Source of the DNA: Escherichia phage BabyEgg | Direction: 5' to 3' (one strand) | Length of the DNA stretch: 50,849 nucleotides | Sequence record: PP925846.1 | In this document: positions 7,744-7,874 of the stretch, in pieces | Position numbering within the stretch: position 1 is the stretch's first letter | Layout of the letters: each line of letters opens with the position of its first letter | Notes under the pieces: model-generated | Databases searched by the model: none | Told to the model about the DNA's origin: nothing | What the model saw: the letters and a program-made list of their open reading frames with translations, nothing else | Position numbers and translations under genes: made by a program

Positions 7744-7772
7744 TTGACAACGTTGTCATGATTGGGTAGCAT
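7744..7772 (+). promoter_or_regulatory. sigma70-like promoter TTGACA-17-TAGCAT overlapping a perfect 14-bp palindrome TGACAACGTTGTCA
   Basis: read directly from sequence; palindrome at 7745-7758. Confidence 0.5.
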
Positions 7773-7834
7773 CAATCCCGTAAACGTAAGAGCGGCCTTG
7801 CTGCCGAACGCGTGACGCGATAGTCACAAACAAC

Positions 7835-7874
7835 GGCGCTATGCTGGGACACTGTAAGACGTAGCGCCTTTTTT
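7835..7874 (+). terminator. rho-independent terminator-like hairpin plus T6
   Basis: GGCGCTA ... TAGCGCC stem followed by TTTTTT, about 60 bp downstream of the promoter at 7744. Confidence 0.5.

What the first reader, a model, noticed from the sequence alone, without database searches (positions are those of the whole stretch)
7744..7874. Promoter-palindrome-terminator cassette: candidate small RNA or attenuated leader
A TTGACA-17-TAGCAT promoter overlaps a perfect 14-bp palindrome TGACAACGTTGTCA (7745-7758), which is a plausible operator. It is followed about 60 bp later by a stem (GGCGCTA / TAGCGCC) plus T6 terminator at 7835-7874, just before the RBS of the next gene. The ~95-nt transcript would either be a stand-alone sRNA or a regulated leader controlling read-through into the last early genes before the late module.
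Basis: seen in the sequence. Interest (0 to 1): 0.5.

Follow-up and report, generated by a model that had tools for sequence, protein, structure and literature searches.

The report
Conserved T1-like phage leader/small RNA
The flagged promoter and terminator are real: they bracket a structured non-coding RNA of about 95 nt that is conserved in T1-like phages (Drexlerviridae), is absent from Rfam and sits in front of the DNA-packaging genes, whereas the "operator" palindrome is a lineage-specific accident.

Summary
The window is a Warwickvirus (Drexlerviridae), 99% identical to phage Jahat_MG145. All three reported features are at the stated coordinates. The 14-bp palindrome is not conserved in relatives, and such palindromes are not rare in this window.

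The promoter is strongly supported. In 52 of 52 distinct related loci, a TTGACN/TTGCAT -35, a 17-18 bp spacer and a TANNNT -10 lie 4-5 nt upstream of a conserved RNA block. That block has a single-stranded CCGUNNACANAAGAG tail, hairpin H1, an AACG linker and hairpin H2. Across 42 distinct sequences, including T1 and Rtp, 99% of cells pair and 8 of 9 pairs show compensatory changes.

In Tempevirinae the RNA ends in a covarying hairpin H3 plus a U-tract, an intrinsic terminator 2 nt before the next gene's ribosome-binding site. T1-type phages instead carry a 5-bp hairpin with an ARYCGUAA loop and no U-tract. Rtp-type phages add a tRNA.

H3 also occurs in some T4-like phages downstream of rIII. 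There it directly follows a single ToxI-like (type III antitoxin) repeat.

There is no Rfam family, no E. coli or plasmid counterpart, and no literature. Function is unproven. My best guess is a terminator-gated leader of the packaging/late operon whose default product is a ~95-nt RNA. The main rival is a trans-acting small or decoy RNA.

The parts
7513..7743 (+). Upstream ORF (76 aa), homolog of T1 gp59 / Rtp15 (phrog_303, function unknown). It is the conserved left neighbour of the RNA.
   Evidence: It was used as the anchor to fetch 61 related loci.
7744..7772 (+). Sigma-70-type promoter: -35 TTGACA (7744-7749), 17-bp spacer, -10 TAGCAT (7767-7772).
   Evidence: In 52/52 distinct related loci there is a -35 TTGACN/TTGCAT, a 17-18 bp spacer and a -10 TANNNT, 4-5 nt upstream of the conserved RNA block. 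The hexamers are conserved while the 5' half of the spacer varies.
7745..7758 (.). Perfect 14-bp palindrome TGACAACGTTGTCA overlapping the -35. Judged incidental.
   Evidence: Present. Not conserved in relatives. The window has 6 such palindromes against 2.7 +/- 1.5 expected.
7779..7874 (+). Predicted primary transcript, about 94-96 nt. The start is inferred from the promoter geometry and the 3' end lies in the U-tract.
   Evidence: The conserved block starts 5 nt after the -10 in 49/52 loci. CM R1 matches 7778-7876 at 101.5 bits. Fold z = -3.1. No Rfam family or tRNA.
7778..7828 (+). Conserved 5' domain: tail CCGUAAACGUAAGAG, H1, linker AACGC, H2.
   Evidence: CM R2 gives 72.6 bits here and hits 55 of 59 sources, always on the + strand. 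Across 42 distinct sequences 99.2% of cells pair and 8/9 pairs have changes on both sides.
7793..7806 (+). Hairpin H1: CGGC / GCCG with a 6-nt loop.
   Evidence: Covariation. Variant stems: CGGC/GCCG, CAGC/GCTG, GCGC/GCGC, GGCTC/GAGC, GCCAC/GTGGC, TGTGT/ACACA.
7812..7827 (+). Hairpin H2: GTGAC / GTCAC with loop GCGATA (family loop consensus RCGRWW).
   Evidence: Covariation. Variant stems: GTGAC/GTCAC, GTGGC/GCCAC, GTAGC/GCTAC, GTGAG/CTCAC, GCCAG/CTGGC, GCGGC/GTCGC.
7829..7834 (+). Single-stranded linker AACAAC. With the following GG it forms the AACAACGG flank that travels with H3 into T4-like phages.
7835..7868 (+). Hairpin H3. Lower stem of 9 bp (7835-7843 / 7860-7868). Conserved interior UGCWGG...CYGUAAGA, with a 2-bp upper helix (7846-7847 / 7852-7853) and a variable tip.
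   Evidence: In the cross-family alignment 6 pairs have double changes and the UAAG and GC positions are invariant.
7869..7874 (+). U-tract (T6) completing the intrinsic terminator.
   Evidence: A T-run is present in all 13 aligned Tempevirinae sequences.
7877..8122 (+). Shine-Dalgarno GGAG (7877-7880) and the downstream 77-aa ORF (ATG 7889), function unknown. The identity of the first downstream gene differs between relatives.

Best explanation
SHOWN. This is a family-wide transcription unit of T1-like phages. A host-type (sigma-70) promoter at 7744-7772 starts an RNA at about 7779. Its first ~50 nt form a conserved 5' domain: a single-stranded CCGUAAACGUAAGAG tail, hairpin H1, an AACG linker and hairpin H2. 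After an AACAAC linker comes a 34-nt hairpin H3 plus U6, an intrinsic terminator 2 nt before the ribosome-binding site of the next gene.

INFERRED. By default RNA polymerase stops at H3 and releases a ~95-nt RNA. The small genes and terminase genes downstream have no recognisable promoter of their own, so they are expressed only by polymerases that read through H3 and the further terminators. The conserved 5' domain would be the platform that sets how much read-through occurs, acting either on RNA polymerase directly or through a phage or host factor. On this reading the element is a terminator-gated (attenuation/antitermination) leader at the head of the packaging/late operon, analogous in layout to lambda PR'-6S RNA-tR'. 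The terminated RNA may in addition act in trans. The palindrome plays no conserved part.
For: Promoter: -35, spacer and -10 are conserved in 52/52 distinct loci at a fixed 4-5 nt from the conserved RNA block.

RNA structure: in Tempevirinae 20 pairs are 98.5% paired, 7 pairs have double changes, and 0/500 shuffles reach the observed values. Family-wide, 9 pairs are 99.2% paired, 8 of them with double changes, against 20-63% paired in the slid controls. G-U pairs would be A-C mismatches on the other strand, so the + strand is the one that folds.

Terminator: 9-bp GC-rich stem, -15.3 kcal/mol, z = -3.6, with a T-run in all 13 aligned Tempevirinae sequences.

Position: always directly after the gp59-like gene and upstream of terS.

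Read-through requirement: no promoter-like site on the + strand between 7772 and 10731, while strong + strand terminators lie at 8512, 10720, 14451, 15328, 16357, 18996 and 23046. T1's record annotates about a dozen + strand rho-independent terminators from just before terS to the end of the tail genes.

Modularity: the same 5' domain is joined to different 3' ends, as with the interchangeable expression platforms of cis-regulatory leaders. These are a terminator in Tempevirinae, and a hairpin 8-12 nt before the SD without a U-tract in T1-type phages.

Not gene-specific: the first downstream gene differs between relatives, which argues for control at the operon or transcription level.
Against: No experiment exists; every functional step is inferred.

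I found no conserved alternative (antiterminator) pairing between the 5' domain and H3. The H2-loop/H3-arm and ACGG/CCGU candidates fail in several lineages (read off).

No sigma-dependent pause element and no boxA/boxB on the RNA strand; no candidate regulator protein.

H1 and H2 are short (4-5 bp), unlike the long irregular stems of HK022 put RNA (PMC9378689).

T1-type and Rtp-type phages have no terminator directly after the domain, so attenuation at that spot is not universal.

H3 is shared with T4-like RNAs that carry a ToxI-like repeat. That favours a stand-alone, trans-acting RNA.
Confidence: 0.45

Rival explanations
1. Stand-alone trans-acting small RNA. The ~95-nt terminated transcript is the functional product. 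It acts either as a base-pairing regulator of host mRNAs or as a decoy/sponge for a host protein or defence nuclease. H3 with its U-tail and AACAAC flank would be a portable 3' stability or protein-binding module.
For: It has its own consensus-like promoter and a conserved terminator, and a typical sRNA size. The H3 module with its AACAACGG flank recurs in T4-like phages (TG1, CHI14/CBH8, Gravdalen, KMB19), directly 3' of a single ToxI-like repeat. That repeat matches real toxI arrays on plasmids at 86-94%. In phage phiTE such pseudo-ToxI RNA is a documented trans-acting antitoxin mimic (PMC3475682; annotation). In Rtp-type phages the locus also holds tRNA-Arg, and one contig has 6 tRNAs there, so it is a stable-RNA locus.
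Against: Most of the family (T1-type) has no terminator, so there the RNA is a 5' UTR. No antitoxin-like tandem repeat is present. The RNA has no match of about 21 nt or more in 5,426 E. coli genomes or 72,556 plasmids. No phage mRNA target was found for the single-stranded segments; the best non-self hits lie on the non-coding strand of late genes. Host targets could not be screened.
Confidence: 0.3
2. 5' UTR element acting after transcription on its own mRNA. It would be a stabiliser against RNase E or 5'-end decay, or a binding site for a translational repressor or activator of the first downstream gene. The repeated CCGUAA-like motif occurs at the 5' end and in the SD-proximal hairpin.
For: The conserved block begins at the predicted 5' end. 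The terminal hairpin presenting YCGUAA lies 8-12 nt before the SD in T1-type phages, and H3 lies 2 nt before the SD here. In T1 the SD is partly buried in a predicted hairpin.
Against: The downstream gene is not the same in different phages. Sequence conservation of unpaired nucleotides is far higher than a generic stabiliser needs. In Tempevirinae a strong terminator separates the domain from the gene.
Confidence: 0.12
3. One reading: the palindrome TGACAACGTTGTCA is the binding site of a phage HTH repressor that controls the promoter.
For: A perfect 14-bp palindrome overlaps the -35.
Against: It is not conserved even in phages about 80% identical over this region. There is no second copy in the genome within 2 mismatches. 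The window has 6 such palindromes against 2.7 expected by chance. The only conserved spacer segment is CTGATTGG, outside the palindrome.
Confidence: 0.04
4. No function: a chance promoter-like and terminator-like pair in an intergenic spacer.
For: Single promoter matches are no more frequent than in shuffled sequence.
Against: Conservation across three subfamilies with compensatory base changes and a fixed promoter-RNA geometry.
Confidence: 0.02

Closest known systems
Lambda late-promoter unit PR' - 6S RNA - tR' (Q antitermination)
   Same: A constitutive sigma-70 promoter directly upstream of the packaging/late genes. A short non-coding transcript ends at an intrinsic terminator. Late genes need read-through of that terminator and of many later ones.
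   Different: No Q homolog and no -10-like pause element in the initially transcribed region were found. Here the RNA itself is structurally conserved with covariation, which lambda 6S RNA is not known to be (own knowledge). The phage is virulent and unrelated.
HK022 put RNA (cis-acting, factor-independent antiterminator)
   Same: A promoter-proximal RNA with two stem-loops at the head of a long operon containing terminators. Its function would be independent of the adjacent gene.
   Different: put is about 70 nt with two long irregular stems and a triplex (PMC9378689). H1 and H2 here are 4-5 bp. No sequence similarity was tested. There is one copy per genome rather than two. A terminator placed immediately downstream is not a put feature.
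Pseudo-ToxI RNA of phage phiTE, and the T4-like rIII-downstream ToxI-like RNAs seen here
   Same: A small phage non-coding RNA in an intergenic region. The T4-like versions end in the same H3 hairpin, including the AACAACGG flank, the conserved UGC...YGUAAGA interior and the U-tract.
   Different: The body of the Drexlerviridae RNA (tail-H1-H2) has no similarity to ToxI or to any plasmid or E. coli sequence and is not repeated. Genuine toxIN loci use plain terminators rather than H3.
Transcription-attenuating leaders / riboswitches
   Same: Promoter, then a conserved structured domain, then a terminator, then RBS and gene. The conserved domain is combined with different 3' platforms in different lineages.
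   Different: No Rfam family matches. No mutually exclusive antiterminator helix was found. Downstream genes are heterogeneous and of unknown function. No ligand is suggested.
Hfq-dependent enterobacterial sRNAs
   Same: About 95 nt, own promoter, Rho-independent terminator with a U-tail, and an A-rich (AACAAC) stretch upstream of the terminator.
   Different: No seed/target pairing was identified. The terminator hairpin carries a sequence-conserved internal loop, which is atypical. T1-type homologs lack the terminator.

Membership tests
Sigma-70 promoter | -35 TTGACA-like and -10 TATAAT-like hexamers with a 16-18 bp spacer | tested here: met
   TTGACA-17-TAGCAT, 10/12 matches.
Sigma-70 promoter | Hexamers and spacing conserved in orthologous positions while the surrounding sequence drifts | tested here: met
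   52/52 distinct loci: TTGACN/TTGCAT, 17-18 bp spacer, TANNNT, 4-5 nt before the conserved RNA.
Sigma-70 promoter | Transcription initiation by E. coli RNA polymerase | not testable with these tools
   Needs in vitro transcription or dRNA-seq.
Intrinsic (Rho-independent) terminator | GC-rich stem immediately followed by a U-tract | tested here: met
   9-bp stem (6 G-C pairs) at 7835-7843/7860-7868 plus T6. T-run present in 13/13 Tempevirinae sequences.
Intrinsic (Rho-independent) terminator | Compact hairpin with a short (3-8 nt) loop | tested here: not met
   16 nt lie between the lower-stem arms (34-nt hairpin). The simple scan therefore missed it. The interior is itself conserved.
Operator palindrome | Dyad symmetry conserved in related phages and/or repeated in the genome | tested here: not met
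Known RNA families (Rfam 15), tRNA/tmRNA | Covariance-model or ARAGORN match | tested here: not met
   No hit inside 7744-7888 even at E <= 10. No tRNA or tmRNA.
Type III antitoxin mimic (pseudo-ToxI type) | Sequence similarity to a bacterial antitoxin RNA repeat | tested here: not met
   The window RNA has no match in plasmids or E. coli genomes. By contrast, the T4-like neighbours of H3 match toxI at 86-94%.
Type III antitoxin mimic (pseudo-ToxI type) | Neutralises a ToxN-family toxin | not testable with these tools
   Needs co-expression or EOP assays.
HK022 put-type antiterminator RNA | Promoter-proximal RNA of two stem-loops transcribed before the terminators it suppresses | tested here: inconclusive
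   The layout is met, but the stems are only 4-5 bp whereas put is about 70 nt with long irregular stems (PMC9378689). Homology was not tested.
HK022 put-type antiterminator RNA | Cis suppression of termination through the RNA polymerase beta' zinc-binding domain | not testable with these tools
   Needs in vitro transcription and rpoC mutants.
Lambda N/nut | boxA (CGCUCUUA) followed by a boxB hairpin on the transcript | tested here: not met
   CGCTCTTA occurs only as the complement of the conserved UAAGAGCG, on the non-transcribed sense (read). It is absent in T1 and Rtp.
Lambda Q/qut | -10-like pause-inducing element in the first ~10 transcribed bases | tested here: not met
   No TANNNT hexamer in the conserved tail CCGUNNACANAAGAG.
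Riboswitch / attenuator | Conserved alternative helix mutually exclusive with the terminator | tested here: not met
   The candidate pairings (H2 loop with the H3 3' arm; ACGG with CCGU; 5' tail with the H3 5' arm) break without compensation in L130, BHUENT9 and PHB17.
Hfq-type base-pairing sRNA | Conserved single-stranded seed complementary to target mRNAs | tested here: inconclusive
   No convincing phage target. The host transcriptome was not available.

The most novel reading that the evidence does not exclude
The 5' domain (CCGUNNACANAAGAG tail, H1, AACG, H2) is a new class of promoter-proximal antitermination RNA. It would be either put-like and factor-independent, or the nut-like site of an unknown small phage protein. 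It would make E. coli RNA polymerase resistant to H3 and to the series of intrinsic terminators in the T1-like packaging/late operon. This would give T1-like phages, whose early-to-late switch has no known regulator, their timing mechanism. In addition, the YCGUAA-presenting 3' hairpin (H3) would be a portable module exchanged with T4-like phages, where it carries a ToxI antitoxin mimic.
Probability: 0.2. Interest if true: 0.85.

Novelty: new member of a known kind. Interest (0 to 1): 0.6.

Why it matters
T1-like phages (Drexlerviridae) are among the commonest coliphages, yet their gene regulation is essentially uncharted. No non-coding RNA is annotated at this site in any of the records examined. 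This element is the most conserved non-coding feature of the region. It has a promoter fixed at its 5' end in every relative examined and sits exactly where early genes give way to the packaging genes.

If it gates read-through, it is the long-missing handle on T1 late-gene timing and possibly a new antitermination RNA. If it acts in trans, it is a new phage small-RNA family.

The shared 3' hairpin links it to unannotated ToxI-like RNAs in T4-like phages. RNA-based counter-defence loci may therefore be more widespread and modular than the single phiTE example suggests. Either way it deserves an Rfam family and an RNA annotation in these genomes; some records currently run protein-coding annotations across it (for example).

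Tried and rejected
- Rfam scan at E <= 10: nothing in the element.
- ARAGORN: no tRNA or tmRNA.
- blastn of the RNA against E. coli genomes and plasmids: no match.
- GTDB representative genomes scanned with an H3 pattern: 2 hits, both chance matches in coding sequence with no stem.
- First loose H3 pattern in IMG/VR: swamped by chance hits, about 5 true of 120. A stricter pattern found only Tempevirinae and T4-like contigs.
- The search for related loci with the downstream 77-aa protein found nothing. With the single upstream protein it found only close relatives. An alignment of gp59 homologs was needed.
- EcS1's alternative body has no plasmid counterpart.
- Duplex search for phage mRNA targets of the single-stranded segments: only the self-antisense and non-coding-strand sites.
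- Flanking proteins: only DUFs and unknown PHROGs.
- Literature: nothing on Drexlerviridae or T1 small RNAs or transcriptomes. One search was wasted on too-loose terms.
- Ideas examined by eye and dropped:
  - K-turn or 11-nt tetraloop-receptor reading of the H3 internal loop: the registers do not fit.
  - ACGG/CCGU pseudoknot: broken in BHUENT9 and PHB17.
  - Lambda boxA: it is on the wrong strand and not family-wide.
  - tRNA-Tyr mimicry (GAGCGGCC D-loop and CUGUAA anticodon-loop similarity): not conserved in T1 or Rtp.
  - CRISPR-repeat mimicry.
  - Guanidine-II/III-like motifs.
  - H2-loop/H3-arm antiterminator: not conserved.
- Genuine toxIN loci were checked for H3; they use plain terminators.

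Full report
IDENTITY OF THE WINDOW AND THE LOCUS

The region 7300-8300 is 98.9% identical to Escherichia phage Jahat_MG145 (Drexlerviridae; Tempevirinae; Warwickvirus) and about 81% identical to many other Tempevirinae.

The finding lies in a 145-nt intergenic gap. On its left is a 76-aa ORF (7513-7743), a homolog of T1 gp59 / Rtp15 (phrog_303, function unknown). On its right is a 77-aa ORF of unknown function (7889-8122). All genes here are on the + strand. terS, terL and portal follow about 0.7 kb downstream.

CHECK OF THE OBSERVATION

- TTGACA at 7744-7749, a 17-bp spacer, TAGCAT at 7767-7772.
- The palindrome TGACAACGTTGTCA at 7745-7758.
- The arms GGCGCTA/TAGCGCC, in fact 9 bp (GGCGCTATG/CGTAGCGCC, 7835-7843/7860-7868), followed by T6 (7869-7874), GGAG (7877-7880) and ATG (7889).

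The generic scans are not informative on their own. There are 32 promoter-like sites in 20 kb against 30.6 expected, and the hairpin is not listed as a terminator because its interior exceeds the loop limit.

The palindrome fails the tests:
- Six perfect 14-bp palindromes occur in the window against 2.7 +/- 1.5 in shuffles.
- It has no second copy within 2 mismatches.
- Its right arm is not conserved in relatives: TGACAACGATTTCC, TGACAACTCTTTCC, TGACGTAACGGCTC.

THE PROMOTER IS REAL BY PHYLOGENETIC FOOTPRINTING

I used an alignment of gp59 homologs from the window, T1, Rtp and PHB17 to fetch 61 Drexlerviridae loci from IMG/VR.

In all 52 distinct loci where the RNA was found, the same promoter geometry holds:
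- -35: TTGACG 26, TTGACC 13, TTGACA 6, TTGCAT 4, TTGACT 3.
- Spacer: 17 bp in 38 loci, 18 bp in 14.
- -10: TANNNT in all, in nine variants that keep T1, A2 and T6.
- Position: 5 nt (49 loci) or 4 nt (3 loci) upstream of the conserved RNA block.

The 5' half of the spacer is free to vary. The RNA's conserved sequence therefore starts at the predicted transcription start, about 7779-7780.

THE TRANSCRIBED REGION IS A STRUCTURED RNA

An alignment of 13 distinct Tempevirinae sequences gives three hairpins. With the structure I specified:
- 98.5% of 260 cells form standard pairs.
- 7 of 20 pairs show changes on both sides.
- No shuffle of 500 reaches the observed pairing, the number of both-sided changes or the covariation score.
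- Sliding the 3' partners by 1-3 columns drops pairing to 25-56%.

U-G and G-U pairs would be C-A mismatches on the other strand, so the + strand is the one that folds. An example is column pair 68/106, which is U-G in 12 of 13 sequences.

Indels of 1-3 nt and 17-19 nt, and the absence of any ORF longer than 7 codons, exclude a coding reading.

No Rfam family matches even at E <= 10, and there is no tRNA or tmRNA.

THE 5' DOMAIN IS FAMILY-WIDE

T1 (Tunavirinae) and Rtp (Braunvirinae) have the same arrangement at the syntenic site:
- T1: TTGACC-18-TAGTAT, then CCGUAGACAGACGAG-[GCGC..GCGC]-AACGC-[GUGAG..CUCAC].
- Rtp: TTGCAT-17-TAATAT, then ACGUAGACAAACGAG-[GCCAC..GUGGC]-AACG-[GCGC..GCGC].

A 51-position covariance model of the 5' domain alone (R2) hits 55 of 59 sources. 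All hits are on the + strand, at a fixed place after the gp59-like gene, with E from 1e-19 to 0.025.

On the resulting 42 distinct sequences, 99.2% of cells pair and 8 of 9 pairs have changes on both sides (103 cells). The slid controls give 20-63%. One caveat: this alignment is fitted to the model. However, the stems are visibly different words in different clades.

The consensus is CCGU-NN-AC-R-N-A-M-GAG, H1 (4-5 bp), AACG-N, H2 (4-5 bp, loop RCGRWW).

THE 3' PART IS MODULAR

In Tempevirinae it is H3:
- A 9-bp lower stem that covaries: GGCGCUAUG, GGCGAUAUG, GGUGAUGUG, GGCGGCACG, and GCCGCG/CGCGGC in L195.
- A sequence-conserved interior, UGC-W-GG ... C-Y-R-UAAGA.
- A variable tip of 3-7 nt, or an extra 17-19-nt hairpin in tunus-type phages.
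- A U-tract.

Isolated H3 variants fold at -14 to -20 kcal/mol, z = -3.3 to -4.2.

In T1-type and several other clades the 3' element is a 5-bp hairpin whose stem covaries: GCCGC/GCGGC, GCGGG/CCCGC, CCCGG/CCGGG, GGGGG/CCCCC, GAGGG/CCCUC. Its loop is A-R-Y-CGUAA. It lies 8-12 nt before the SD and has no U-tract.

Rtp-type phages have a longer RNA followed by tRNA-Arg(UCU), and one contig carries six tRNAs at this place.

A YCGUAA motif is thus common to the 3' hairpins, and a similar CCGUAA/CCGUAG/CCGUGA begins the RNA.

H3 OUTSIDE THE FAMILY

blastn with the intergenic region also hit T4-like phages of Serratia, Erwinia and Enterobacter. There H3 lies downstream of rIII and about 20 nt before gene 30.9. 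It keeps its AACAACGG flank, its conserved interior and its U-tract, but has a compensatory stem (GGCUCUAUG/ACUUAGAGCU).

A cross-family alignment gives 95% pairing and 6 pairs with double changes; the GC and UAAG positions are invariant.

In TG1-type, CHI14/CBH8, Gravdalen and KMB19 phages, H3 is immediately preceded by one copy of a ToxI-like repeat. In the TG1-type contig it reads AGGTGATTCGCTACCTTAAGTGCGGCTAGAAAAC; the other phages carry more degenerate copies. It matches genuine toxI arrays upstream of toxN on Pectobacterium and E. coli plasmids at 86-94%.

Other cases:
- EcS1 has a different body and CC31 has none.
- T4 and VR20 keep a degenerate or intact ToxI-like repeat after rIII but have other hairpins.
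- Genuine toxIN loci and a Grimontviridae pseudo-ToxI use plain terminators.

H3 was not found in E. coli genomes, in plasmids, or in GTDB representatives. In IMG/VR it was found only in Tempevirinae and T4-like contigs.

WHAT IT MOST LIKELY DOES

Two facts are shown. In this phage, a host-type promoter makes an RNA whose first 50 nt are under strong structural and sequence constraint. An intrinsic terminator follows, 2 nt before the next RBS.

The rest is inferred. I see no promoter-like site on the + strand between 7772 and 10731. Strong + strand terminators lie at 8512 (just before terS), 10720, 14451, 15328, 16357, 18996 and 23046. T1's record annotates a similar series. Expression of the packaging and late genes therefore seems to need read-through from this promoter or from promoters further upstream.

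I favour a terminator-gated leader (confidence 0.45) for three reasons:
- The same 5' domain is joined to different 3' ends in different clades.
- The first downstream gene varies between relatives.
- The element always sits at the head of this operon.

The layout resembles lambda PR'-6S RNA-tR'. The ~95-nt RNA would be the default product.

Weaknesses of this reading:
- No alternative antiterminator helix is conserved.
- No pause element, boxA/boxB or regulator was found.
- H1 and H2 are much shorter than put stems (PMC9378689).
- T1-type phages lack the adjacent terminator.

The main rival (0.3) is a stand-alone trans-acting small or decoy RNA. It is supported by the sRNA-like architecture, the co-location with tRNA genes, and above all the sharing of H3 with ToxI-like RNAs, whose phiTE counterpart is an antitoxin mimic acting in trans (PMC3475682). 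Against it, the body has no bacterial counterpart, no repeats and no phage target.

A purely post-transcriptional 5'-UTR role (0.12), the operator model (0.04) and chance (0.02) are less likely.

NOVELTY

No record examined annotates an RNA here. Several run protein-coding annotations across it, or label the upstream neighbour oddly, for example 'inducer of pleiotropic effects'. Rfam has no family. Full-text searches found nothing on Drexlerviridae or T1 small RNAs or transcriptomes.

The kind of element, a promoter-proximal structured RNA with a terminator, is known. The family, its breadth across Drexlerviridae and the shared module with T4-like ToxI-like loci appear to be new.

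Noticed in passing
L049 (TG1-type contig, - strand, about 11844-11935); L005 1165-1250 (CBH8); L150, L151, L155, L157; L161 1700-1790 (T4, - strand): Many T4-like phages carry a single, unannotated ToxI-like (type III antitoxin) repeat in the intergenic region downstream of rIII. In E. coli T4-likes such as VR20 and APCEc01 it covers about 33-36 nt at up to 97-100% identity to the ToxI-like repeat of the TG1-type query. T4 itself has a degenerate copy. 126 phage records matched the query, including Kuravirus-like, 7-11-like and T5-like phages. Only phiTE's copy is annotated as pseudo-ToxI.
   Followed up: partly
L155 700-790 (phage EcS1): At the position of the ToxI-like repeat, EcS1 has a different ~36-nt body (CUGGUAGGUCUGCCAUGAAAUGACCAAACAGAAAAC) in front of H3. 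It has no plasmid counterpart. It could mimic another RNA.
   Followed up: partly
window 7760-7778 and homologs (alignment A2, columns 20-45): In several lineages a short inverted repeat brackets the -10 hexamer: GATTG...CAATC in the window and G29-2, GGCGCT...AGCGCC in L130, ACGGCT...AGCCCGT in L064. The spacer segment CTGATTGG is conserved. This may be a regulator site or a hairpin in read-through transcripts.
   Followed up: no
window 7787-7794 (complement): The most conserved Tempevirinae stretch, UAAGAGCG, is the exact complement of lambda boxA (CGCUCUUA). It lies on the non-folding strand and is not conserved in T1 or Rtp, so it was judged coincidental.
   Followed up: partly
window about 8079-8264: A small conserved gene (MIYKVKLTIRRMGRNCSSCKQDFECEV..., CxxCx5C motif) appears to start at a GTG near 8079, after a GAGG, and overlaps the end of the 77-aa ORF. 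In other Drexlerviridae this gene is the first one after the RNA. No Pfam match.
   Followed up: partly
L163 4893-4969 (Rtp); L221, L222, L227, L228, L210, L218, L219; L206 1907-2554: In Rtp-type phages a tRNA-Arg(UCU) gene follows the conserved RNA. One contig (L206) has six tRNA genes at this locus and no R2 hit. The site seems to be a hotspot for stable-RNA genes.
   Followed up: partly
window 8512-8539, 10720-10741, 14451-14472, 15328-15352, 16357-16377, 18996-19014, 23046-23065, 32840-32857: There is a series of strong intrinsic terminators on the + strand within the packaging/structural operon. Terminator-like sites total 30 and 35 against about 20.6 expected per 20 kb. Several are bidirectional.
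   Followed up: partly
window 1654, 14623, 32842, 41715, 43020: Five other perfect 14-bp palindromes. The one at 32841-32856 extends to 16 bp and is the loop-stem of a bidirectional terminator.
   Followed up: no
GenBank records MG0656xx ('Campylobacter phage A1xx', host C. jejuni): About 20 records labelled as Campylobacter phages carry this Drexlerviridae locus at about 77% identity and have genome sizes of 47-50 kb. They look like coliphage-type Drexlerviridae, so the host label may be wrong.
   Followed up: no
L158 735-790 (phiTE): The phiTE pseudo-ToxI is immediately followed by a tRNA 3' fragment (T-arm, acceptor, CCA), and a tRNA-Tyr gene lies about 300 nt upstream.
   Followed up: no
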